Source: a virus
Lineage: Duplodnaviria > Heunggongvirae > Uroviricota > Caudoviricetes
IMG/VR virus record: IMGVR_UViG_3300029068_000003
Length of the DNA stretch: 37,522 bases
Reading direction: 5' to 3' (one strand)
The position numbers and the translations under genes are program-made. Shown one piece after another: positions 5,960 through 37,522 of the stretch (its first letter is position 1; every line of letters starts with the position of its first letter). The notes under the pieces were generated by a model. It did no database searches and was not told the DNA's origin. It was given only the letters and a program-made list of their open reading frames with translations.

Positions 5960-6050
5960 TTTTCGCCTATTAACATTTTTCTAAATGTGCATTAATTCTA
6001 TCACTCTATTTATGACTTACAACCAGCAATACCTGTGAGGGGAATCCTGG

Positions 6051-7883
6051 CTACCAAAATCGGGTATAGCCAACATCGTGATTTATATCAATGCCACTGG
6101 AGCGTGTTTCCGTAACCCGCATACCTGGTGGCATATTTATAAATGATACCTTGATCTCACCATCAACTTTTGGCGCGGTAGCTTTATTAATCATGAAGGG
6201 ATTCGGACCTGTGGCACCGGAGGCGTTGTTTGCCTGAGCCGGATCCACCTCCGGATAAGGAGTGTATCCCCGTGGCGGTATTCCCGTCCCATAAGCATCA
6301 TAAGCACCCGCGCCCCACTGCGCCGAGTTAATGGCATCGACCGTGTCACCGGAACTGTCGGTAAACCATTCAATAATCGGCTTCAGCTTATCCCACATAT
6401 CCTGAAACCACTTAACAACCGGTCCCCAGTTATTGATCACCATCCCCAGCGGCGACCAGGCAAAAACCTTCTTCAGAAGTTCCCAGCCAGCCTCAAAATA
6501 AGGACTAATGGTTTCCCAGAGCTTCTTAAAATAAGGTCCGACAACATCCCAGTTAGTGATAATTAATCCCGCAGCCAGGGCTATCGCCGTCGCAATCATG
6601 CCAATCGGCGTCATCGACATGATCCTGCTGACGATACTGATGGCACTGCCCACGCCCATCAATCCCAGTTTCAGAATCGCAAGACCGGCAGCAAGCCCGA
6701 CGACGCCGCGAATAACCCGGGGATTTTCATCCGCAAACTTCGTGAATTTTTCCCCTAACTCCCCCAGCCATTGCGTGATATTTTTGGCGTCACCAGAAAA
6801 TGCGCCGCCAATAGCCGCAAGGCCGTTAGTTGCGGTCCCCGTCATTGCCTCCCACAGGTTGGACAGCGTACCAAGCTGGGCCTGAACACGTTTATTCAGG
6901 CTGGCCTGTTTATTCATCTTCTGCTGGATCTGATCGTAACCATCCTTTCCTTTATCGATCAGAGCATTGACCACCTGAAGGGTTTCGGCATCATCACCAA
7001 ATATTGCCTTAAGTACACCGGTTCGCTTAACGTCGGTCAGTTTTCGCAGCTTTGCCAGTTGCCTGAACATGTTATCAAGACCGCCAAAACTCCCTTTGCC
7101 GTCAGTAAAATCGAGCTGTACCCCGAGTTTCTGGCGGGCCATAACTTTATTAACGCCCCTGATTTTCTTAACGCTTAATCCGGACTGGATAACTTTTCGC
7201 AGGGCATTACCTGCCGACTCCCCGTTCATCCCCATCTGATCCATCATGACGCTGATGGGGGCAAGGCTCTGTGCAGCCTGAAGACCGTCCTTGTTCACCA
7301 TCTTCAGAACAGAACTGGTTTTAGTGAAGAAGGACAACATGTTGGTATCGTCAACGCCCAGATAAAACGCCTTCTGGATAGTGTCGAACAGCCCCATCAT
7401 GTCTTCTGACGCCGTTCCGGTAGCATCCTGCATCTTTGCAGCAAACTCAGCAGCCGCTTCCGGTGTTTTTTTCAGTTGTACCGCAAGATAAGCTGTCGCT
7501 TTACCCACACCGCCAAGAATATTTTCTGCCGGGATCCCCTGACGCACCAGCATCTGCATCATGTTCTGGAAATCAGCCGTTGTACCGGGTAGCTGGTTAC
7601 CCAGGCCAATAGCCAGTTTATTGATGTCCTGAAAGCTCTTTCCGACCTCGCCGTTCGCATCCATCATGGCGACTTTCAGCCCGGTGGCGGCGTTTTCCTG
7701 ATCGGCATAAGATTTCAGGGAAAGCGTCAGACCCGCTGCCAGTCCGCCACCAAGCGCCAGCCCACCCTGTGATGCTTCTTCCGCCTGGCGTTTAAATCCC
7801 CGGATTTTCTTTTGCATTTTCGACAGCGCGGGAGAAAGTCTGTCGACACCGGTGATCAACGCCTTAAGCTCAAATTCAGCCAT
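6051..7883 (-). CDS. Tail tape measure protein
   Basis: 610 aa ORF, ATG start, Ala/Gly/Leu-rich with hydrophobic stretches; between tail chaperone and baseplate genes. Confidence 0.7.
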   Translation of the reverse strand: MAEFELKALITGVDRLSPALSKMQKKIRGFKRQAEEASQGGLALGGGLAAGLTLSLKSYADQENAATGLKVAMMDANGEVGKSFQDINKLAIGLGNQLPGTTADFQNMMQMLVRQGIPAENILGGVGKATAYLAVQLKKTPEAAAEFAAKMQDATGTASEDMMGLFDTIQKAFYLGVDDTNMLSFFTKTSSVLKMVNKDGLQAAQSLAPISVMMDQMGMNGESAGNALRKVIQSGLSVKKIRGVNKVMARQKLGVQLDFTDGKGSFGGLDNMFRQLAKLRKLTDVKRTGVLKAIFGDDAETLQVVNALIDKGKDGYDQIQQKMNKQASLNKRVQAQLGTLSNLWEAMTGTATNGLAAIGGAFSGDAKNITQWLGELGEKFTKFADENPRVIRGVVGLAAGLAILKLGLMGVGSAISIVSRIMSMTPIGMIATAIALAAGLIITNWDVVGPYFKKLWETISPYFEAGWELLKKVFAWSPLGMVINNWGPVVKWFQDMWDKLKPIIEWFTDSSGDTVDAINSAQWGAGAYDAYGTGIPPRGYTPYPEVDPAQANNASGATGPNPFMINKATAPKVDGEIKVSFINMPPGMRVTETRSSGIDINHDVGYTRFW

Positions 7884-8058
7884 GTGTGCGTTTCTCCTGC
7901 TCTATCCTGTTTGCCTGACTGACCAGCAAGGGAATTTCACTGATCGGCATATTCAGCAATTCGAAGGGATTAATGCGCCAGTAACTGGCGCAGTCAAAGA
8001 AGCGATCAGTGAGGTATTCAGCCGTCAGGCCTGGAGGAAAAAACCAGCCACAAGCCAC
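7876..8058 (-). CDS. -1 frame extension of the tail assembly chaperone (G/GT-like programmed frameshift product, C-terminal part)
   Basis: ORF in the -1 frame relative to 8025..8294, overlapping its 3' end; slippery heptamer U UUU UUC on the mRNA (complement of 8037-8043) sits in the overlap; the ORF-track start is GTG, not an independent ATG. Confidence 0.5.
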   Translation of the reverse strand: MACGWFFPPGLTAEYLTDRFFDCASYWRINPFELLNMPISEIPLLVSQANRIEQEKRTHG

Positions 8059-8294
8059 GCCGCAGCATTCAGGTCTGCCGGAGACATCTGGTCGACAGAG
8101 TTTTGCGGCACTTTCGCCAGCCGCACAATGTATTTCGATACCACATGCGCCAGAAGTCTGACTGACTCATCCTGATTCATCTGGTAGGGATACCCCAGCT
8201 CGCGGACATCTTTCCCGGTGGGCTCATCAAACTCCAGTACGGAGAGTGTCTCGCCATGAGCAGTAATCGGTTTCTTTAACTCAAGCTCTTTCAT
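8025..8294 (-). CDS. Tail assembly chaperone (Mu gp41-like)
   Basis: 89 aa ORF, ATG start, between tail tube and tape measure; carries the slippery site near its 3' end. Confidence 0.55.
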   Translation of the reverse strand: MKELELKKPITAHGETLSVLEFDEPTGKDVRELGYPYQMNQDESVRLLAHVVSKYIVRLAKVPQNSVDQMSPADLNAAAWLVAGFFLQA

Positions 8295-8650
8295 TACTGG
8301 TAATCCCCTTCTTCACCGTGGAACTCAAGATCAACCGTGCCTTCTTCGGCATTATGGTTCGCTTCGCCGTGCAGCCAGGCAGACGACAGTACATAGACCT
8401 GACCGTTCGCCAGCTCGGCAGTGATGGTCATCTCATCAGACGAGGTGATTTTGCTCACCGGAAAATTCTTCGGCACCTTGAAGGTCCCTTTGACATAGGG
8501 CGCACGGTGAGTTTCCTTGCGGTCCACTGAACCGTCCAGGCCGATGATGTCATCATTGACCGTCCTGTTCATGGGCACCTCAATGCCGCCGGTCAGCGAT
8601 AGCTGCTGACCGTCAATTTTGAAATAACAGGTTCCCCCGATACGGGCCAT
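8294..8650 (-). CDS. Tail tube protein
   Basis: 118 aa ORF, ATG start, immediately downstream of the sheath gene. Confidence 0.6.
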   Translation of the reverse strand: MARIGGTCYFKIDGQQLSLTGGIEVPMNRTVNDDIIGLDGSVDRKETHRAPYVKGTFKVPKNFPVSKITSSDEMTITAELANGQVYVLSSAWLHGEANHNAEEGTVDLEFHGEEGDYQ

Positions 8651-10146
8651 TATGCAGACTCCTCTGAATACTGAAGACGGAACTGGTTAACCACGGCAAA
8701 GACACGCAACTGGTTAACATAGTCAGGCGGGAACAGCGTGTTCAGGCGGTTCGGATCGCTGGCATCACGCTCCACAACCAGGTACTGCTTAAACAGTTCG
8801 TAGTTTTCCACGATCCCCGCACGCTCAAGCTGACGGTAGGTTGCCAGCAGTTCCCCTTTGATCACCGCCGGGGTGACAATCGCCTGACCGGGACCAAAGC
8901 GGGTACCGTCACTGGCAAGCTTGTGACGCCCGTACTTACTGGTAATGACGGATTTCAGTTTGCGCAGTACATACGCGCTGGTATGCAGCGTCTCACTGTC
9001 GAGGTAGCTGTTATCCGCAACCCCGTAAGCGTTTTTCCTGTACGTGGTGACATCACGCTGAATGCGCAGTACCCCGCTTTCGACATACGCCGTTGCCACG
9101 CCATGAGACAGCAGGGTCTGTTGTTCGGTCATCGTGAACCGTTTCCCCTTCGGCGCAGGCAGCATACCCACCAGCTCACCGGTCTGCGTGGGACGTGCCG
9201 GATCGTTGCGAATAAACACCGCTGCGCGGGCGGTACGGCTTGCCGCCAGTTCGTCGGCAGGCGTCTGGGTCTCTTTTTCGTACCCCGCCAGGGTAATGTG
9301 CTGCTGGTTAAACTGGTCACCTGCGGTCACCAGTTCTGACAGCGTGCCGATCTTTGCCGTATACACATGACCATACAGCTGACGCGCATAGCTCCAGCGA
9401 CCGCTGGTATCGTTCATCTCGGTCACCAGCGTGTTAACGGAGGCCGTGTCGTTGAACGGCAGGCCGATATAATCAAACGGCTCATCCGCCATTGCAGCCA
9501 CCGCGCCGGTGAGAACCGGAGCACCCGTTCCGGCGGTACCCGTCGCCACGGCAATCTGTACGCCCGCTGGCAGCACTTCGCCCCCACCAAAGCCGTAGTA
9601 ATTGAGGCTGACAGGAATTTCATTCCCGCAAAGCCCCTTATGACGCGCGGTCAGTGTGACCACACCTGCCGAAGATGAAGCCGTAAACGGCAGGGCCGGA
9701 ACGGCATTGATGGCATCCTGGATACTGCCGGCAATCGTCGTGACGTTATCGCCGTTGGTCACCGGAGCCTGCACGCGGGTACGTCCCACATAGACATTCA
9801 CCGTGCCGCTTTCGGTTGCTTCCCCGGTCACCGTCAGCGTAACCGTTGCCGCCGCGCCTGTGGCTTCCGGAACGGCAATCACATACAGCTCACCAAACGG
9901 GTCGGTCTGGCGATAAGCCTCGACCATACGCGCCAGCTGACTTCCCGCACCACAAATCTGGCGTGCATAGTCTGCCGACGGCATCAGCACCAGACTGTTG
10001 GCAACAATCTCTGCACCGTTATTGGCATGACCAATCAGCAGCGATGCTCCGCTGTCCTGTGCAGTATTCGCAGCCTGGTTATCCATTTCCGCATAAAACA
10101 GCGGAACCAGCGTATTCGACGGAATGGTGTTAAAGCTTATCGTCAT
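8650..10146 (-). CDS. Tail sheath protein (contractile tail)
   Basis: 498 aa ORF, ATG start, sheath-tube-chaperone-tape measure order. Confidence 0.75.
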   Translation of the reverse strand: MTISFNTIPSNTLVPLFYAEMDNQAANTAQDSGASLLIGHANNGAEIVANSLVLMPSADYARQICGAGSQLARMVEAYRQTDPFGELYVIAVPEATGAAATVTLTVTGEATESGTVNVYVGRTRVQAPVTNGDNVTTIAGSIQDAINAVPALPFTASSSAGVVTLTARHKGLCGNEIPVSLNYYGFGGGEVLPAGVQIAVATGTAGTGAPVLTGAVAAMADEPFDYIGLPFNDTASVNTLVTEMNDTSGRWSYARQLYGHVYTAKIGTLSELVTAGDQFNQQHITLAGYEKETQTPADELAASRTARAAVFIRNDPARPTQTGELVGMLPAPKGKRFTMTEQQTLLSHGVATAYVESGVLRIQRDVTTYRKNAYGVADNSYLDSETLHTSAYVLRKLKSVITSKYGRHKLASDGTRFGPGQAIVTPAVIKGELLATYRQLERAGIVENYELFKQYLVVERDASDPNRLNTLFPPDYVNQLRVFAVVNQFRLQYSEESA

Positions 10147-21145: not shown

Positions 21146-21667
21146 ATGATGAACAAATTAGCACGCTTATTATTAACAGCAAGCTCAATTGCACCTGTTT
21201 GCGCAACTCTATTTTTTATTGGATATGTAAAAGATACGGTTTGGCTGATGCAATATAGCTTATGCGTTGGCATAGCAAGTTGGTTATTAGCAATAGGCCT
21301 GATTCAATATGCTGAGAAACAACTTGAACCTCTGACAAAAAATATTAGTTCAGTTTCTCCCGCTAACAAAGAAGTAACTAATTATTTCTTAAGCTATTTA
21401 TTCCCTCTCCTAGGAACAGACTCTATTGCTGAAAATAAAGCATATGCGTTATTCTTTTATTTGTCATTGTTATTTTACATCAGCTTTTCCGAGAACTATA
21501 ACTTTAACCCAGTATTGTCACTTATCGGTTATAAATTTTACGAAGCTGAAGATGACACCGGCGTAGGTTTTGTATTGATTTCTAAATCAGTCATTACTGA
21601 TATTAAAGATATCAAATTTACAGTTATTCAATTAACAGACTACACATTTCTACATGTTAAAGGATAA
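21146..21667 (+). CDS. Small integral membrane protein with about 4 TM helices (KwaA-like architecture, unverified)
   Basis: 173 aa AT-rich ORF with hydrophobic segments (LLLTASSIAPVCATLFFIGYV; WLMQYSLCVGIASWLLAIGLIQYA; YALFFYLSLLFYISF); opposite strand to flanking Q and lysis genes. Confidence 0.55.
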   Translation: MMNKLARLLLTASSIAPVCATLFFIGYVKDTVWLMQYSLCVGIASWLLAIGLIQYAEKQLEPLTKNISSVSPANKEVTNYFLSYLFPLLGTDSIAENKAYALFFYLSLLFYISFSENYNFNPVLSLIGYKFYEAEDDTGVGFVLISKSVITDIKDIKFTVIQLTDYTFLHVKG

Positions 21668-21672
21668 TAACC

Positions 21673-22557
21673 ATGGCACTTTTTGCAGTAATAGATAATA
21701 CAATTGCAACGAGAATTGTTAGAGTCGAACTTGATGCAACAGCAAGTACTTCTGTTACGGCCATTTTCCAACAACAGCGTCAATATTTTGAAAGTCATCA
21801 TAACAATATGATACCATTCTATGCCGGTTATACACCAAAACATAGTGAGTGTTTTGAAATACAAAACTTTACTGATTCTGCACGCCTGATTGACGCAGTC
21901 AATAGGCCTACCGCCGTGCCTGTCTGGGATCCCAGCCAAATTGATATTGGTTATATTAAAGCATTATTTGTTGGTGTTGACGCGCCAGCAAACCCCAATA
22001 TTATTGCGCTACAAACCTTCAACAAAAAACAAATCTTAGATACCTCAAAATCATTCTTTGGAAAGCTTTTTGCAAGCAAAACTACCTTTAGTAAAGCTAA
22101 TAGCATCGGTTTTAATGTTGATGATAAACTAGTTGCAATAATTATCAATGATACAATACGATTTAAGAGTTTCTTTAATCTAAGAAGCATTTTTGACATG
22201 TCGTCCTATTTTTCTGCTGCTACTGACCAAGAACTTAATGCATTTAGTCAACTTAGTGTATTTTCTACTCCCCAAGGTTTTGATCTAAAATCCGTTGCAG
22301 ATACAGTGATAAGAAATAAAGTAACACTAATAAATCAGACTGGGATGCTAACACCCCAAAATATGTCAAAGTTTAAATCCGAAGCTGCTAAAGTCAATTT
22401 CCCCTTACAAACCATAATAGTTGGCGGTGTTGAGAAAATTGTCATGCCTTCATCAAAAAAAGAAATAAAAGCCCTTCTTGACTTTCTTGAGGAAGACATT
22501 TGGATTTCAGGGATAAGTGGAAGACGCTTTAAATCGAATTCAAAGCGCCCAATATAA
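21673..22557 (+). CDS. Soluble partner protein of the membrane protein (KwaB-like size, unverified)
   Basis: 294 aa AT-rich ORF starting 5 nt after the upstream stop, with an SD overlapping the upstream gene end (operon); no recognisable catalytic motif. Confidence 0.55.
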   Translation: MALFAVIDNTIATRIVRVELDATASTSVTAIFQQQRQYFESHHNNMIPFYAGYTPKHSECFEIQNFTDSARLIDAVNRPTAVPVWDPSQIDIGYIKALFVGVDAPANPNIIALQTFNKKQILDTSKSFFGKLFASKTTFSKANSIGFNVDDKLVAIIINDTIRFKSFFNLRSIFDMSSYFSAATDQELNAFSQLSVFSTPQGFDLKSVADTVIRNKVTLINQTGMLTPQNMSKFKSEAAKVNFPLQTIIVGGVEKIVMPSSKKEIKALLDFLEEDIWISGISGRRFKSNSKRPI

Positions 22558-32668: not shown

Positions 32669-32722
32669 CTGCGAAATTAACTAGTGAAATAGTTTTGTAG
32701 CAAAAGAAATGAGGTTATCAAA

Positions 32723-32968
32723 ATGCTTCAAATGCTGACACTTGAGGAATGGGCTGCGGAAAAATTTAGGAGTAACCCTCCAAGTGTGTCCACATTGCGT
32801 CGTTATGCTAAGCAGAATTTATTTTGTCCACCGGCAATGAAACAAGGTCGACTATGGCGAGTACGTGAGGACGCAGAGTTAGTTGGAGAATTAGTTACTC
32901 CTGTCATTAAGAAAAGTGATTCTATTATTCTACAAAGGATTTTAAGTAATGGCAGCCAGACCACGTAA
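32723..32968 (+). CDS. Excisionase (Xis)
   Basis: 81 aa ORF immediately upstream of and overlapping int; GAGGT Shine-Dalgarno. Confidence 0.6.
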   Translation: MLQMLTLEEWAAEKFRSNPPSVSTLRRYAKQNLFCPPAMKQGRLWRVREDAELVGELVTPVIKKSDSIILQRILSNGSQTT

Positions 32969-34076
32969 GAATAATGTTTCAGTCCCGAACTTGTATCCGC
33001 TCTATAGCAGAAAAGTAAATAAAGTTTATTGGCGATATAAGCATCCAGTGACCGGGAAGTTTCATTCTTTGGGCACAAACGAAGCTGAAGCCATTGCTAT
33101 TGCCACTGAGGCCAATACACGCCTAGCTGAGCAAAGAACCCGGCAGATTCTAGCTATCAGTGACAGGATCGCAACCAGCAAAGGAAAAGCAATCACAACG
33201 TCAACCTGGTTAGATCGCTATCAAGCAATCCAGGAAGACAGACTGAAAAGTGGCGATATAAAGCTCAACACTTATAAACAGAAAGCCAAACCAGTATCCT
33301 TGCTCAGGGAACGAGCAGGACTGAAGTTGATATCAGCCGTTGATGTCAGAGATATAGCACAATTACTTGATGAGTATATCTCTGCTGGACAGCCTAGAAT
33401 GGCCCAGGTCGTAAGGTCTGTATTGATCGATGTGTTTAAAGAAGCACAGCATTACGGCGAAGTTCCACCAGGGTATAACCCTGCTCTTGCAACGAAGCAA
33501 CCCAGAAGAAAAATTACCCGACAACGGTTAAGTCTTGAAGAATGGCAAAAAATTTTTGATATCGCAGATGCCAGTCATCGTTATATGGGGAATGCCATGC
33601 TGTTAGCACTGGTTACTGGCCAGAGGTTAGGTGATATCTCGCGTATGAAATTTAGTGATATTTGGGATGATCATCTCCATGTTATTCAGGAAAAGACCGG
33701 GAGCAAAATCGCAATCCCGCTTTCCCTTCGTCTCAACGCGATTAGCTGGAGTTTACGCGATGTAGTAGTCCGCTGCCGTGATTATGCAGTCAGTCCATAC
33801 TTAGTGCATTTTTTCCGTTCAACCTCACAGGCAAAACGTGGTGCACAGGTTAAATCCAATACATTGACGATGAATTTTAGTAAAGCACGGGATTTAGCAG
33901 GGATTGACTGGGGGGATGGCTCACCTGCCACATTCCATGAGCAAAGGTCTTTATCTGAACGCCTGTACAAAGAACAAGGGATAGATACTAGGAAGCTACT
34001 TGGGCATAAAACACAACAGCAAACTGATCGTTATGATGATGATCGTGGGAAAAACTGGATGAAGATAACATGTTAA
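32949..34076 (+). CDS. Tyrosine integrase (lambda Int family)
   Basis: 375 aa; C-terminal catalytic region with ...HEQRSLSERLYKEQGIDTRKLLGHKTQQQTDRYDD...; next to the xis-like gene and the attachment-site side of the prophage. Confidence 0.85.
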   Translation: MAARPRKNNVSVPNLYPLYSRKVNKVYWRYKHPVTGKFHSLGTNEAEAIAIATEANTRLAEQRTRQILAISDRIATSKGKAITTSTWLDRYQAIQEDRLKSGDIKLNTYKQKAKPVSLLRERAGLKLISAVDVRDIAQLLDEYISAGQPRMAQVVRSVLIDVFKEAQHYGEVPPGYNPALATKQPRRKITRQRLSLEEWQKIFDIADASHRYMGNAMLLALVTGQRLGDISRMKFSDIWDDHLHVIQEKTGSKIAIPLSLRLNAISWSLRDVVVRCRDYAVSPYLVHFFRSTSQAKRGAQVKSNTLTMNFSKARDLAGIDWGDGSPATFHEQRSLSERLYKEQGIDTRKLLGHKTQQQTDRYDDDRGKNWMKITC

Positions 34077-34394
34077 AATTGTGGGAATGAGCAAATATTA
34101 GTTACGCATGTAAAAAGCACACAATGTAATTAATAAGTCTACTTAGTATAATGATTGGATGTTTTTTTCATAATTGACATTAATTACCCCACAAATTGCA
34201 GAGTTAATGCCGAATCAATGTAGAGTATAAAAACAATATTTTTATAGATTTACTGTTTCATCAGTAAACCATTCCCTTGGTGAAAGCCTAGTATCGTACT
34301 TTTATCACATTTTATTTCATCGACTCTCGTAAATAATTTGTTATATGCCATAATGCCTCCTTAACAAAAAAACCACAACCTCATGGAGAGTTTC

Positions 34395-36722
34395 ATGGCA
34401 TTTAACCTTACCCGTATGACAGTTTATGCTCTTCTTTGCGCTTTAGAGGAAGACCTCCGTTCAATAGTTGTAAGTTACATCTTGAAGCCAGAAGATAAAG
34501 AAATAAAACTACCAAACGAACTTTTAGAAAAAGCTAAAAGAAGACTAGAAAAAGACCTCGGCACTGTGATGGATGGTATAGAATCAATTGATTTAATAGA
34601 ATATTTTGACCTTGGAGATACTTACCAAATCATAAATTCCAATGGAAAGGAAATTCCCGATCACATATATAAATTCATAAAATCCATTACCAAAGATTTG
34701 GACTCTCTCGTTCTAATAAGAAACAGAGTTATGCATATTCGACCATTAGACGTAGAAGATTACCCTACGCTTGCATCTATTTGCGAAAAGATAATAAAAT
34801 CCGAAACAAACTGTTGGTCTAACCTTACAGAAATATCCCAAAAAATAAATAACAACCCCAGCTTCTTGTTATCGATGGAAATTAAAAATTATGATGAAGA
34901 AAAGCAAAATCATAATTTACCCCTCCCTGATTTTGATGAAACAGGATTGATAGGAAGACAAAGTCATGTCCAAAAAGTAAAACAACTTTGCTATGGAGCG
35001 TTCCCTGTCATTTCCATAGTTGGAGAAGGTGGCGTAGGAAAAACTGCGCTGGCACTTAAAGTTGCTTATGAAATACTCGAGGATGAAGATAATCCTTTTG
35101 ATGCAATTGTTTGGGTTTCATCAAAAACCACACAAATAACTGTAAATGAAATAAAAGAAATCAAAGACGCTATATCCGACTCCATAGGGGTTATACAGGA
35201 AATATCAAATCAAATAATTGGAACGAGTGTAAAACAATCGAATTTTGAAGAGATAATCGAATATCTTACGACATTTAAAATCGCTCTTTTCATTGATAAT
35301 CTCGAGACAATCCTTGATGATAACATACGCGAATTTGTTGGTGCTTTACCTCAAGGAAGTAAAATAATAATAACATCAAGAATCGGATTGGGTGCATTTG
35401 AGTATCCAGTGAGATTGCAAGGTATCGATGAATCATATGCTTCACAATTAATGAGAATATTGGCAAAAATAAGAGGTGTTGACTCCTTAGAGAAAATAGA
35501 AGAAAAAATAATGAGGAGTTATGTCAATCGTATGTCGCGTAACCCAAGTTACATTAAGTGGTTCGTAAGTTCGGTTCAAACGGGATTGAGCCCTGAAGCA
35601 GTTCTTCAAAATTCAAATATGTTTCTTGATTTTTGCATGTCAAATGTTTATGAGTATTTATCTACAAATGCCAGGACACTTACTGCAGCCCTACAGTGTG
35701 CTCCCGGTTTAAAAGACGTACCTGAGCTATCTTATTTAACTGGATTTGACTCCCTTCAAACTCATCAATCCATTCAAGAATTGATGGCTACAAATATGTT
35801 GTCACAATCATCTAAAACGAAAGGTGCAAGTGTTAAAACCACTTACCAATTATCTGAATTAGCAAGGTTATATTTAGGCAAGAATCATAAACCGACCCAG
35901 ACTTATCAAAAAAGCATTCATGAAAAGCGGAACAAATTAAATGCACTTTTTGAAAAACAGCTGATGTCGAGAAGTGAAGATAAATATAATCCTCTGAATA
36001 TAAAATTCAGGGATAAATCTGATCGAGTTATTGTGAAAATGCTTAGAGACTCTCAGTCATTTATAAGAAATGGTCATCACGATAAAGCATTTGAATTACT
36101 CACTGAATCACACAAATTATCCCCAGACTATTTTGAAGTTGCTCGCGTGATGGCCTACTTACATCAACAGAATGGTGCAATTAGTGATGCCCGTGAGCAA
36201 TACGAATTGGCTATTGTATTATCACCTGACACACCTCAATTACACTACTGGTTCGCAAAATTCTTACTGCGTGAAGAGGATAATGTCGATGACGCTTTAA
36301 CTCAAATACAGCTAGCACATAATTTAGACCCCACATCTATTGAAGTATCTCTATCTTTGTCAAGAGTCTATATGTTCCAACATAGATTTGATGAGGCTGA
36401 AAATGTTCTTTCACTCATAGAATTAGATATTAAAAACTCTAGTGAACATAATATAAAAATATTTAAAGATACACACATTCAAATATCTTACCGGAGAGCT
36501 GATAATTTAGCTCAAAAAGGTGAGTATTCTGAAGCAATGTCATATCTAGAGAAAATGCTTGAGCAATTTGAGGAACTACCCGATTATTACAAAGATGTGC
36601 ATATTAGAAAAAAATTATCGAAATGCGAATTTCTATTGAAGACAATTTCTCGTAGTGCAGATCAATTAATCCTTCACAGAGCTGATAATTTTAGAGAATG
36701 GCTACAAAAAGAATGTGCTTAA
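34395..36722 (+). CDS. HEPN - P-loop NTPase (STAND/NB-ARC-like) - TPR-like repeat protein; candidate antiviral STAND (Avs-like) or abortive-infection effector
   Basis: N-terminal RNxxxH HEPN motif (LVLIRNRVMHIRP); Walker A GEGGVGKTALA; Walker B-like IALFIDNLE; helical repeat C-terminus; AT-rich; own terminator; start taken at ATG 34395 (GGAGAG upstream) rather than 34383. Confidence 0.65.
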   Translation: MAFNLTRMTVYALLCALEEDLRSIVVSYILKPEDKEIKLPNELLEKAKRRLEKDLGTVMDGIESIDLIEYFDLGDTYQIINSNGKEIPDHIYKFIKSITKDLDSLVLIRNRVMHIRPLDVEDYPTLASICEKIIKSETNCWSNLTEISQKINNNPSFLLSMEIKNYDEEKQNHNLPLPDFDETGLIGRQSHVQKVKQLCYGAFPVISIVGEGGVGKTALALKVAYEILEDEDNPFDAIVWVSSKTTQITVNEIKEIKDAISDSIGVIQEISNQIIGTSVKQSNFEEIIEYLTTFKIALFIDNLETILDDNIREFVGALPQGSKIIITSRIGLGAFEYPVRLQGIDESYASQLMRILAKIRGVDSLEKIEEKIMRSYVNRMSRNPSYIKWFVSSVQTGLSPEAVLQNSNMFLDFCMSNVYEYLSTNARTLTAALQCAPGLKDVPELSYLTGFDSLQTHQSIQELMATNMLSQSSKTKGASVKTTYQLSELARLYLGKNHKPTQTYQKSIHEKRNKLNALFEKQLMSRSEDKYNPLNIKFRDKSDRVIVKMLRDSQSFIRNGHHDKAFELLTESHKLSPDYFEVARVMAYLHQQNGAISDAREQYELAIVLSPDTPQLHYWFAKFLLREEDNVDDALTQIQLAHNLDPTSIEVSLSLSRVYMFQHRFDEAENVLSLIELDIKNSSEHNIKIFKDTHIQISYRRADNLAQKGEYSEAMSYLEKMLEQFEELPDYYKDVHIRKKLSKCEFLLKTISRSADQLILHRADNFREWLQKECA

Positions 36723-36750
36723 TTTTATTTTCATAAAACCAAATACTAAA

Positions 36751-36779
36751 GCAAGCCCTTTATTAGGGTTTGCTTTTAT
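36751..36779 (+). terminator. Intrinsic terminator after the HEPN-NTPase gene
   Basis: Stem gcaagccct/agggtttgc (36751-36759 / 36765-36773, one G-U pair) followed by TTTTAT. Confidence 0.5.
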
Positions 36780-37073
36780 AGCTATCGAACAATAATCCTG
36801 ATTATATCCATACAGTACAATCCACCTCATTTTCTGATATTTATTTATGTGTAAATTACTATAATTTTATAACCATAGTATAGCTGAATAAGAATTTACA
36901 AAATCAACAGCACAGCTCTGACTAAACAACCAACTTTTGTAGATATTATAACATAAGGTCTCTATCGTTATATGGTTCAACCTAGAACCGCTCGGTAGCC
37001 TCTTGACTCACCAAACCTCCAAGGGGTTTTGATAACTTATTTTGATAAAATTTTGATAACCGTTAGCAACCTA

Positions 37074-37104
37074 ACAAAAAACAGCGGGAGCGTTACACTC
37101 CCGT
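37074..37104 (-). terminator. Intrinsic terminator of icd
   Basis: Stem cgggag/ctcccg (37085-37090 / 37098-37103) followed by a T-run on the minus strand (plus 37075-37081 A-run), about 25 nt downstream of the icd stop. Confidence 0.6.
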
Positions 37105-37128
37105 TAATAAATTTAACAAACTACGGCA

Positions 37129-37522
37129 TTACATGTTCTTTATGATCGCGTCACCAAACTCGCTACATTTCAGCAGCTTAGCGCCTTCCATCAGACGTTC
37201 GAAGTCATAGGTTACGGTCTTGGCATTGATCGCGCCTTCCATACCTTTAACAATCAGGTCTGCGGCTTCAGTCCAGCCCATATGGCGTAACATCATCTCA
37301 GCGGAGAGAATAATAGAGCCAGGGTTTACTTTGTCCTGACCGGCGTATTTCGGCGCAGTACCGTGGGTGGCTTCAAACAGGGCGCATTCGTCACCGATGT
37401 TTGCTCCAGGGGCGATACCGATACCGCCAACCTGCGCTGCCAGAGCGTCAGAAATGTAGTCACCGTTCAGGTTCATACAGGCGATAACATCATATTCAGC
37501 CGGACGCAGCAGGATCTGTTGC
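37129..37522 (-). CDS. icd: Isocitrate dehydrogenase, C-terminal portion (partial; continues beyond window end)
   Basis: Translation ...[92 protein letters not shown] matches the E. coli Icd C-terminus as recalled; frame stays open to the window edge. Confidence 0.85.

What the first reader, a model, noticed from the sequence alone, without database searches (positions are those of the whole stretch)
34077..37522. Integration at the 3' end of icd with int adjacent, as in e14 and phage 21; cargo slot between int and att
The window ends in the icd C-terminal coding region with its terminator, and int/xis lie about 3 kb away facing it. e14-type elements integrate within icd and supply a replacement 3' end. 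The int-to-icd interval in e14 holds lit; here it holds the HEPN-NTPase gene, suggesting a variable defence-cargo slot. The exact att core cannot be located without the other prophage end.
Basis: partly seen in the sequence, partly recalled or inferred. Interest (0 to 1): 0.5.

Follow-up and report, generated by a model that had tools for sequence, protein, structure and literature searches.

The report
e14-type prophage end in icd
This is the integrase end of an e14-type prophage inserted in the E. coli isocitrate dehydrogenase gene, which it repairs with its own copy of the gene's last 54 codons; between integrase and attachment site lies a slot where related prophages carry different anti-phage genes, a known kind of arrangement.

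Summary
Observation and interpretation both hold. The window ends in icd (minus strand, 37522 to 37129). Its last 165 nt (37293-37129) and its terminator (37103-37085) are phage-supplied: 10 synonymous differences, no amino-acid change, against 2 differences in the 229 nt upstream. xis and int (94% identical to K-12 IntE) face icd 3.05 kb away. All 13 of 5426 complete E. coli genomes with this junction hold a second icd 3' copy. In RM10466 it is the displaced pseudogene at the far prophage end. The crossover falls within 37293-37232, probably 37293-37283.

Three TTATCAAAA repeats (37027-37059) look like the integrase's arm-type sites. The variable slot starts just outside them and ends in the last codons of int. 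Fourteen sampled e14-type lysogens carry 12 unrelated gene sets there, including Lit, Septu, DarTG, Shosta and Kiwa. The window's cargo is one AT-rich 775-aa gene: HEPN-like domain, NB-ARC NTPase, TPR repeats. It is probably an untested Avs-like sensor.

A phage-21-type relative has no such slot. icd integration has been known since 1989, and icd is catalogued as defence hotspot #24. This is a well-resolved new example, not a new principle.

The parts
32723..32968 (+). xis (excisionase, 81 aa), overlapping the start of int
   Evidence: Pfam Exc, E 1.5e-12. Annotated xisE in RM10466.
32949..34076 (+). int, a lambda-type tyrosine integrase of the e14 IntE lineage (375 aa)
   Evidence: Pfam Arm-DNA-bind_1 E 2.1e-37 and Phage_integrase E 5.2e-17. 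It is 94% identical to K-12 IntE and 60% identical to the Int of lambda-like phage ev207. The motifs TGQRLGD, HEQR, LLGH and RY are visible in the sequence.
34052..34080 (.). Left edge of the variable slot. Homology among e14-type prophages ends within the last ~8 codons of int or at its stop codon.
   Evidence: BLAST end points against 13 lysogens and the printed alignment.
34077..37010 (.). Cargo slot between the int stop and the outer edge of attP (2.93 kb here); GC 0.34, against 0.44 for int and 0.50 for the whole window
   Evidence: The content is unrelated in 12 of 14 sampled lysogens.
34395..36722 (+). Cargo gene, 775 aa (an upstream ATG at 34383 would give 779 aa). Layout: N-terminal HEPN-like domain (about aa 1-160, RNRVMH at 109-114); NB-ARC STAND NTPase (Walker A GEGGVGKT at 210-217, Walker B LFIDNLE at 298); C-terminal TPR array (about aa 540-760).
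36748..36776 (+). Hairpin just after the cargo stop codon, a probable terminator of the cargo gene
   Evidence: Inverted repeat I3, 12-nt arms, 92% complementary, 5-nt loop. Inference only.
37011..37128 (-). Conserved phage segment downstream of the icd stop (P' arm of attP), shared by all e14-type lysogens sampled
   Evidence: Homology to 13 lysogens resumes at 37011-37028.
37027..37059 (-). Three direct repeats of TTATCAAAA, 11 and 13 bp apart. These are the proposed arm-type Int-binding sites P'1-P'3.
   Evidence: The 9-mer occurs 5 times in the window against 0.48 expected, and three copies cluster here. A fourth copy in the same orientation lies in the P arm of RM10466, 127 bp before the core. 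The repeats are conserved in 11 lysogens with different cargo. Phage ev207, which has a different Int, carries three TCCCCAAAA repeats at the same position and one in its P arm.
37075..37103 (-). Phage-borne copy of the icd terminator (8-bp stem, 3-nt loop, T-run)
   Evidence: Relative to the native terminator the stem changes on both sides (CGGGCGT/ACGCCCG to CGGGAGTG/CGCTCCCG) and stays paired.
37129..37293 (-). Phage-supplied replacement of the last 54 codons plus stop of icd (165 nt)
   Evidence: Homology between attL and attR begins at 37293. There are 10 nt differences from the native end, all synonymous, including TCA to AGC (Ser). The Icd protein accession is the same in lysogen and empty-site strain.
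37232..37293 (-). Interval in which the crossover must lie: 62 bp identical in attL, attR and attB. The probable core is 37283-37293 (ATGTTACGCCA).
   Evidence: In K-12 e14 the first attL/attR difference comes 11 bp after the start of homology. In ev207 the homology to icd starts 2 nt further in.
37294..37522 (-). Host part of icd (codons upstream of the junction), running off the window
   Evidence: Two differences in 229 nt from the empty-site allele. Pfam Iso_dh.

Best explanation
The region is the attL (integrase-proximal) junction of a full-length e14-type temperate prophage integrated in the 3' end of the E. coli icd gene.

An IntE-type, lambda-like tyrosine integrase recombines attP with a site at icd codon 363. 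The phage carries a 165-nt surrogate of the last 54 codons plus a copy of the terminator directly after the core. Icd therefore stays intact and here is unchanged in amino-acid sequence. The native 3' end is left as a pseudogene at the far junction.

The P' arm of attP ends with three TTATCAAAA repeats, which I take to be arm-type Int sites (inferred). The DNA between the outermost of these repeats and the int stop codon is free of integration constraints. It serves as a cargo slot that differs among otherwise similar e14-type prophages and mostly holds anti-phage systems.

In this prophage the slot holds a single, horizontally acquired, AT-rich gene. It encodes an N-terminal HEPN-like (AbiF/Swt1-like) domain, an NB-ARC STAND NTPase and a C-terminal TPR array.

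The mechanism of the cargo protein is inferred and not shown. By analogy with Avs/NLR-type systems, the TPR array would recognise a protein of an infecting phage. Nucleotide-dependent oligomerisation of the NTPase would then bring the HEPN domains together, and the activated RNase would cleave RNA and abort the infection, protecting the lysogen population and the prophage.
For: Integration
- attB, attL and attR were compared using an empty-site genome and a lysogen that is 99.96% identical over window 32701-37522.
- Divergence jumps from 2/229 nt upstream of the junction to 10/165 nt downstream, with zero amino-acid changes.
- All 13 genomes with this junction have a second icd 3' copy.
- Int is 94% identical to K-12 IntE, and the gene order is that of e14.

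Arm sites
- The 9-mer is enriched, clustered and in one orientation, and it also occurs in the P arm.
- It is conserved across lysogens with different cargo.
- A phage with a 60%-identical Int has a different triple repeat at the same place.

Slot
- Conserved flanks end at 34052-34080 and 37011-37028.
- 14 sampled lysogens hold 12 unrelated cargo sets. These include Lit (E 8.5e-124), Septu PtuA (6.4e-239), DarT/DarG (1.4e-42 and 6.6e-58), Shosta (ShosA 1.3e-79), Kiwa, and NsnA-, AriA- and Ppl-like proteins.
- The icd locus is listed as defence hotspot #24 in PMC10121019, with Lit and a type IV restriction system for K-12.

Cargo protein
- Domains are given.
- GC is 0.345 against 0.497 for the window.
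- An 86%-identical Klebsiella homologue sits after the tail-fibre genes of P2-like prophages. An Aeromonas homologue is a lone gene in a non-phage context. This is the behaviour of a mobile single-gene module.
Against: - The distal junction of this particular prophage is outside the window. attR was taken from RM10466, which is only about 97% identical over the structural genes.
- The 62 bp of perfect identity after the start of homology mean that sequence alone cannot place the crossover more precisely. It also cannot exclude integration or later conversion by homologous recombination.
- Int binding to the TTATCAAAA repeats is untested.
- No experiment links the cargo protein to phage defence. 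It matches no Avs/AVAST model in PADLOC; its only match of weight there is to a candidate family.
- The Pfam HEPN_Swt1 match is below threshold (E 0.05).
- No homologue was found in 50,697 phage records.
- Three or four cargo sets have no recognisable function, so 'defence slot' is a majority statement and not a rule.
Confidence: 0.85

Rival explanations
1. The cargo gene is not an anti-phage system. It would be a STAND-type regulator or another lysogenic-conversion gene (moron) with a host-physiology role. In that case the slot would be a general moron site and not a defence slot.
For: Some database sources name homologues 'LuxR family glucitol operon transcriptional activator', as for MalT-like STAND regulators. 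The protein does not match the PADLOC Avs models. Three or four cargo sets in the slot have no defence match. e14 itself also carries ymfD and ymfE, of unknown role.
Against: No DNA-binding domain was found. The N-terminal domain has an invariant Rx4H motif, and its best structural matches are HEPN proteins, including the abortive-infection protein AbiF. It also matches a PADLOC candidate defence family. The gene recurs at a cargo position in P2-like prophages. Eight of the 12 cargo sets in the same slot, this one not counted, match known or candidate defence systems.
Confidence: 0.2
2. This lysogen arose, or its junction was later reshaped, by RecA-dependent homologous recombination through the 165-bp icd homology and not by Int-mediated exchange at the core.
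For: The first 62 bp of the phage-borne icd copy are identical to the host allele. In K-12 e14 the differences start after 11 bp.
Against: int and xis are intact. The start of homology coincides to within 2 nt with that in e14 and in ev207, as expected for a fixed core. The identity may simply be the phage's own sequence. Both routes give the same structure.
Confidence: 0.1
3. icd is uninterrupted and the prophage merely lies next to it (integration beside the gene, not within it).
For: The Icd protein is full length and identical to that of an empty-site strain.
Against: The last 165 nt differ at 10 synonymous sites from the native end, while the upstream 229 nt differ at 2. A second copy of exactly this 165-nt segment plus terminator, identical to the empty-site allele, lies at the far end of the prophage. 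All 13 genomes with the junction have two copies.
Confidence: 0.01

Closest known systems
e14 element of E. coli K-12 (Brody & Hill 1988; Hill, Gray & Brody 1989; Mehta, Casjens & Krishnaswamy 2004; references as listed in PMC12803456; their content is cited from my own knowledge because the papers are not held)
   Same: Same attB inside icd, the same 165-nt surrogate 3' end, Int 94% identical, and xis adjacent. The gene order is the same from icd through int and xis to pinE, mcrA and the icd pseudogene. The P' arm with the TTATCAAAA repeats is also the same.
   Different: K-12 e14 is a 15-kb deleted remnant. This element keeps the head, tail, lysis and replication genes. The slot holds ymfD, ymfE and lit in e14 and a single HEPN-NTPase-TPR gene here. 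The e14 surrogate changes two Icd residues and this one changes none.
Phage 21-type lambdoid phages that use the same icd site (Wang et al. 1997, from my own knowledge; NC-SV in PMC12803456; here represented by phage ev207)
   Same: Homology to icd starts within 2 nt of the same position. There is a surrogate 3' end plus terminator copy, then a triple direct repeat straight after the terminator, with one more copy in the P arm.
   Different: Int is only 60% identical. The repeat is TCCCCAAAA and not TTATCAAAA. The icd fragment lies 114 bp from int with no cargo between, and accessory genes (sitABCD and others) lie on the other side of attP.
Defence hotspots of temperate phages and satellites (P2/P4: Rousset et al. 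2022, from my own knowledge; E. coli pan-genome hotspots: Hochhauser et al. 2023, PMC10121019)
   Same: Conserved flanks enclose interchangeable, mostly defensive cargo. The icd/ycgX locus is their hotspot #24, occupied by a defence-carrying island in 150 of 897 genomes, with Lit and a type IV restriction system listed for K-12.
   Different: That work defines the hotspot at the level of the chromosome (a whole island between core genes). Here the variable position inside the e14-type prophage is resolved to the interval between the int stop and the outermost arm repeat. I found no paper that describes this intra-prophage slot, but the library lacks most subscription journals.
Avs / antiviral STAND NTPases (Gao et al. 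2022, from my own knowledge) and HEPN abortive-infection proteins (AbiF, PDB 8vz6)
   Same: Three-part layout of N-terminal effector, STAND P-loop NTPase and C-terminal repeat sensor. The gene is single and is carried on mobile elements.
Lambda attP-int organisation (from my own knowledge)
   Same: int reads towards attP, and three tandem arm-type sites lie in the P' arm next to int.
   Different: The arm repeats lie about 230-265 bp from the core, because the icd surrogate and terminator intervene. About 3 kb of cargo separates the P' arm from int.

Membership tests
e14-type icd-integrating prophage | Junction inside the icd coding region, 165 nt before the stop, with a phage-borne surrogate 3' end | tested here: met
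   Homology between attL and attR starts at window 37293, which is 165 nt before the end of the stop codon. There are 10 synonymous differences from the native end.
e14-type icd-integrating prophage | Displaced native icd 3' fragment at the distal prophage end | tested here: met
   It is not in the window. It is present in RM10466 (a 168-bp pseudogene next to iraM), and all 13 genomes with this junction have two icd 3' copies.
e14-type icd-integrating prophage | IntE-lineage integrase with an adjacent excisionase | tested here: met
   94% amino-acid identity to K-12 IntE. xis matches Pfam Exc.
Lambda-Int family tyrosine recombinase | N-terminal arm-binding domain plus a C-terminal catalytic domain with the R..HxxR..H..Y residues | tested here: met
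   Pfam Arm-DNA-bind_1 (127 bits) and Phage_integrase (62.6 bits). The catalytic motifs were seen by eye in the alignment and were not formally aligned to lambda Int.
Lambda-type attP with arm-type sites | Direct repeats bound by the Int N-terminal domain in both arms | tested here: inconclusive
   Sequence evidence is strong, but binding was not tested and cannot be tested with these tools.
Prophage defence hotspot (conserved flanks, variable defensive cargo) | The same flanks in related elements with unrelated content enriched in defence systems | tested here: met
   12 cargo sets in 14 lysogens; flanks are 86-92% identical. Eight of the 12 sets, the window's own not counted, match PADLOC known or candidate systems.
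STAND NTPase (NB-ARC type) | P-loop NTPase domain above the Pfam threshold, with Walker A and Walker B motifs | tested here: met
   NB-ARC 35.8 bits against a cut-off of 23.5. GEGGVGKT at 210-217 and LFIDNLE at 298, both nearly invariant.
Avs (AVAST) anti-phage systems | Match to Avs1-5 profile models | tested here: not met
   PADLOC returned only PDC-M34B and a weak mad8 hit. The protein therefore has an Avs-like architecture but is not a member of the modelled families.
Avs (AVAST) anti-phage systems | Demonstrated protection against phage, triggered by a phage protein | not testable with these tools
   No experimental data were found.
HEPN domain | Conserved Rx4-6H motif in an all-alpha domain | tested here: met
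   R109-N-R-V-M-H114 is invariant in 61 homologues. The model is all-helical, with mean pLDDT 75.7.
HEPN domain | Significant profile or fold match to known HEPN families | tested here: inconclusive

The most novel reading that the evidence does not exclude
The interval between the int stop and the P' arm of e14-type prophages is a sharply delimited, so far undescribed intra-prophage defence hotspot. Its unassigned occupants would be new anti-phage systems. These are the HEPN-NB-ARC-TPR protein here, a 1040-aa plus 156-aa pair, a 348-aa protein, and several two- or three-gene sets without any family match. The HEPN-NB-ARC-TPR family, which also sits at a cargo position of P2-like Klebsiella prophages, would be a new Avs-like sensor class.
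Probability: 0.5. Interest if true: 0.45.

Novelty: new member of a known kind. Interest (0 to 1): 0.3.

Why it matters
Integration of e14 and phage 21 into icd with a replacement 3' end is textbook material, and defence hotspots in prophages are an established concept. The principle is therefore not new.

What the analysis adds is resolution.
- It places the crossover interval.
- It identifies the probable arm-type sites of the e14 integrase lineage, and a different set for a second integrase lineage that uses the same attB.
- It shows that the variable cargo begins right at the edge of the minimal attP.

This gives a simple rule for harvesting cargo from several hundred E. coli genomes. Some of that cargo matches nothing known, and the HEPN-STAND-TPR gene is a concrete, testable candidate.

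Tried and rejected
- The classic papers on e14 and phage 21 attachment (PMC179457, PMC331406) are not held. A four-term search for them found nothing. Statements about them rest on my own knowledge and on the reference list in PMC12803456.
- The best match to Int in the phages collection (vB_EcoM-689R6, 94.6%) is a prophage excised in silico together with host flanks (icd, rluE, nudJ). It gives no true attP.
- tblastn of the cargo protein against 50,697 phage records found no match.
- NCBIfam gave only generic TPR hits for the cargo protein and nothing for nine other slot proteins.
- A PDB sequence search gave only designed or generic TPR proteins.
- A literature search for HEPN + STAND + NB-ARC + TPR + anti-phage found nothing.
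- Nucleotide comparison with the Klebsiella and Aeromonas homologues shows similarity confined to the coding sequence. No shared cassette ends or recombination sites could be defined.
- The slot edges are ragged over about 30 bp. A site-specific cassette mechanism was therefore considered and set aside in favour of ordinary recombination in or near the flanks.
- I considered that the e14 sRNA co293/C0293 might lie in the conserved segment. Rfam found nothing of that kind, only a sub-threshold STnc150 match.
Full report
**What is in the sequence**

ORF listing and reading of 33800-37522 show the following features.
- xis at 32723-32968 (+) and int at 32949-34076 (+).
- A 306-bp AT-rich spacer, then one long ORF at 34383/34395-36722 (+).
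- About 400 bp without long ORFs.
- On the minus strand, an ORF that runs off the window end and stops at 37129.

Pfam confirms each assignment.
- The last ORF is the C-terminal 130 residues of isocitrate dehydrogenase (Iso_dh, E 1.8e-42).
- int has the lambda-type arm-binding domain (E 2.1e-37) and the Phage_integrase domain (E 5.2e-17).
- xis matches Exc (E 1.5e-12).
- The long ORF has NB-ARC (35.8 bits, cut-off 23.5) and several TPR families.

A terminator-like hairpin with a T-run lies at 37103-37085 on the icd strand. The int stop and the icd stop are 3,052 bp apart, and int reads towards icd.

**Is it an integration within icd?**

The stretch 34077-37522 occurs at 99.8-99.9% identity in 13 of 5426 complete E. 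coli genomes. Each of these has two places that match the icd 3' end.

In one of them, RM10466 (L001), the annotated order is icd, a TPR protein, intE and xisE, then replication, lysis, head and contractile-tail genes. It ends with pinE, mcrA, a 168-bp icd pseudogene lacking its N-terminus, and iraM. The window matches this prophage over most of its length at about 97%. Its last 4.8 kb match at 99.96%.

An empty site, with icd directly followed by iraM, was taken from strain WP2-S18-ESBL-07 (L002). K-12 e14 was taken from a K-12-like genome (L003).

In the six-way alignment, attR becomes identical to attB at the position that corresponds to window 37293. This is exactly 165 nt before the end of the stop codon. 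attL stays identical to attB down to 37232 and then differs.

Over the 165 nt the phage-borne copy differs from the native end at 10 positions in 8 codons. All are synonymous, and one is a serine codon switch from TCA to AGC. The 229 nt upstream differ at only 2 positions. The Icd protein accession is the same in the lysogen and the empty-site strain.

The copy of the terminator differs on both sides of the stem and still pairs.

It is not met, so the integration reading stands. The distal junction of this particular prophage lies about 3.5 kb beyond the start of the window, so it was seen only in relatives.

**Where the crossover is**

Sequence alone limits it to 37293-37232, which is 62 bp identical in attL, attR and attB.
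- In K-12 e14 the first attL/attR difference comes 11 bp after the start of homology.
- In the lambda-like phage ev207 the homology to icd starts 2 nt further in.

The core is therefore most likely at 37293-37283 (ATGTTACGCCA on the icd strand). This is an inference. Exchange or later conversion through the 165-bp homology cannot be excluded for this lysogen.

**Probable arm-type sites**

Just beyond the terminator copy lie three direct repeats of TTATCAAAA (37027-37059, minus strand), 11 and 13 bp apart.
- The 9-mer occurs 5 times in the window against 0.48 expected.
- A reconstructed attP has a fourth copy, in the same orientation, 127 bp before the core in the P arm. The P arm came from RM10466 and the P' arm from the window.
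- The three repeats are conserved in 11 lysogens whose neighbouring cargo is unrelated.
- Phage ev207 has an Int only 60% identical. At the same position after the icd terminator it carries three repeats of TCCCCAAAA, with one more in its P arm.

Two integrase lineages that share one attB but have different repeat sets are what arm-type Int sites would look like. From memory, this agrees with Wang et al. 1997 on phages 21 and e14. Binding was not tested.

**The slot**

An IntE-type int at 85% nucleotide identity or more is present in 500 of 5426 genomes; most of these are K-12 laboratory strains. I read the annotation around int in 12 further lysogens and one 'phage' record.

BLAST against the window shows that similarity ends at 34051-34080, that is, in the last ~8 codons of int or at its stop. 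It resumes at 37011-37028, directly outside the outermost repeat. The content between these points is unrelated from strain to strain.

| Strain | Slot content | PADLOC match |
|---|---|---|
| K-12 e14 | ymfD, ymfE, lit | Lit 8.5e-124 |
| SCU-176 | Septu plus an IS200 | PtuA 6.4e-239 |
| A17 and 689R6 | DUF262 protein plus partner | NsnA-like |
| 2014C-3338 | TrlF-family ATPase plus partner | Ppl-like |
| GPEC60-33-648 | DarTG | DarG 6.6e-58, DarT 1.4e-42 |
| H3 | ATPase plus a small protein | AriA-like |
| AHM8C160RI | degraded Kiwa plus one gene | KwaA, KwaB |
| VTB97584v | candidate system plus one gene | PDC-S02 |
| 2c3 | Shosta | ShosA 1.3e-79 |
| ESBL 15 | 1040-aa plus 156-aa pair | none |
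| GF8 and TUM9812 | 348-aa protein | none |
| E700025 | three genes | none |

Counting the window, that is 12 cargo sets in 14 lysogens. Eight of them, the window's own weak candidate match not counted, match known or candidate defence systems.

The slot in the window has GC 0.34, against 0.44 for int and 0.50 for the whole window.

In ev207 the icd fragment lies 114 bp from int and its accessory genes lie on the other side of attP. The slot therefore belongs to the e14 integrase lineage and not to icd integrators in general.

**The cargo protein**

Databases annotate a 775-aa form that starts at 34395. The family is widespread in Gammaproteobacteria with a constant length.
- In an alignment of 61 members, R109-N-R-V-M-H114 is invariant. 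Walker A (GEGGVGKT, 210-217) and Walker B (LFIDNLE, 298) are conserved.
- The N-terminal 130 residues match the PADLOC candidate family PDC-M34B (E 4.8e-10).
- They match Pfam HEPN_Swt1 only weakly (E 0.05, below threshold).
- An AlphaFold model of residues 1-185 is all-helical, with mean pLDDT 75.7 but low confidence at 110-115.

'HEPN-NTPase' is thus a fair description, but the HEPN part is only moderately supported.

The protein does not match the Avs models of PADLOC. It is not found in the phage collection.

An 86%-identical Klebsiella homologue lies after the tail-fibre genes of P2-like prophages. From memory, that position corresponds to a described P2 cargo site. An Aeromonas homologue is a lone gene among chromosomal genes. 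Nucleotide similarity to both is confined to the coding sequence.

The proposed mechanism is sensing by the TPR array, NTPase-driven oligomerisation, HEPN RNase activation and abortive infection. It is inferred from the architecture and from Avs-type systems. Nothing here demonstrates it.

**Comparison with what is known**

The following are established.
- Integration of e14 and phage 21 into icd with a replacement 3' end. The references are listed; the papers themselves are not held.
- The general idea that one type of mobile element carries different defence systems at dedicated positions (PMC10121019).
- The icd/ycgX locus as hotspot #24 in that study: occupied by a defence-carrying island in 150 of 897 genomes, with Lit and a type IV restriction system listed for K-12.

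I found no description of the slot between int and the P' arm as such. The library lacks most subscription journals, so this is weak evidence of novelty.

**Verdict**

The finding is correct and well supported. It is a new, well-resolved example of known kinds: an e14-type icd integration, and a prophage defence hotspot. Its main practical value is as a source of candidate defence genes, beginning with the HEPN-NB-ARC-TPR gene in this window. Interest is 0.3.

Noticed in passing
window 21146-22557 (+): An intact Kiwa system lies between the Q-antiterminator and lysis genes, on the strand opposite the late genes: KwaA at 21146-21667 (PADLOC E 1.9e-83) and KwaB at 21673-22557 (E 2.3e-150). RM10466 has an MBL-fold hydrolase and two hypothetical genes at the same place. 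The prophage therefore has a second cargo position.
   Followed up: partly
window 36849-37109 (+): A sub-threshold Rfam match to STnc150 (25.4 bits against a gathering score of 60; E 0.002-0.014). The well-aligned part consists of the UUUUGAUAA repeats and the complement of the icd terminator. In Salmonella, STnc150 lies between icdA and STM1239 on the strand opposite icdA (PMC2515195). The Salmonella sRNA locus may therefore derive from, or overlap, an e14-type attP P' arm.
   Followed up: partly
L015 (E. coli E700025) 9585-10088: Inside the slot, an icd 3' remnant (9585-9808, 76% to window 37051-37275) is followed 30 bp later by an int 3' remnant (9839-10088, 77% to window 33808-34057). This fits tandem integration of a second icd-specific element followed by deletion of nearly all of it, which would leave its int-proximal cargo behind. 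It suggests one route by which the slot gains genes.
   Followed up: no
L013 383-2272; L001 41629-42462; L003 16937-17770: At the other prophage end, between pin and the P arm, mcrA of e14 and RM10466 is replaced by a 629-aa DUF262 protein in strain VTB97584v. This may be a further variable position next to attP. It lies outside the window.
   Followed up: no
window 32715-32723 (+): A further exact copy of TTATCAAAA ends at the first base of the xis start codon. It could be chance or a regulatory Int site.
   Followed up: no
L018-L021 (Klebsiella) 6001-8328: The 86%-identical homologue of the cargo protein is found on many Klebsiella contigs. In all four places read it sits between the tail-fibre gene and the gpU/tape-measure block of a P2-like prophage.
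   Followed up: partly
whole-genome counts: The icd 3' end matches 7338 places in 5426 complete E. coli genomes, with up to 4 per genome. About 1900 places are thus extra copies, and a large minority of genomes carry something integrated at icd. Only 500 genomes have an IntE-type int, so most occupants use other integrases.
   Followed up: no
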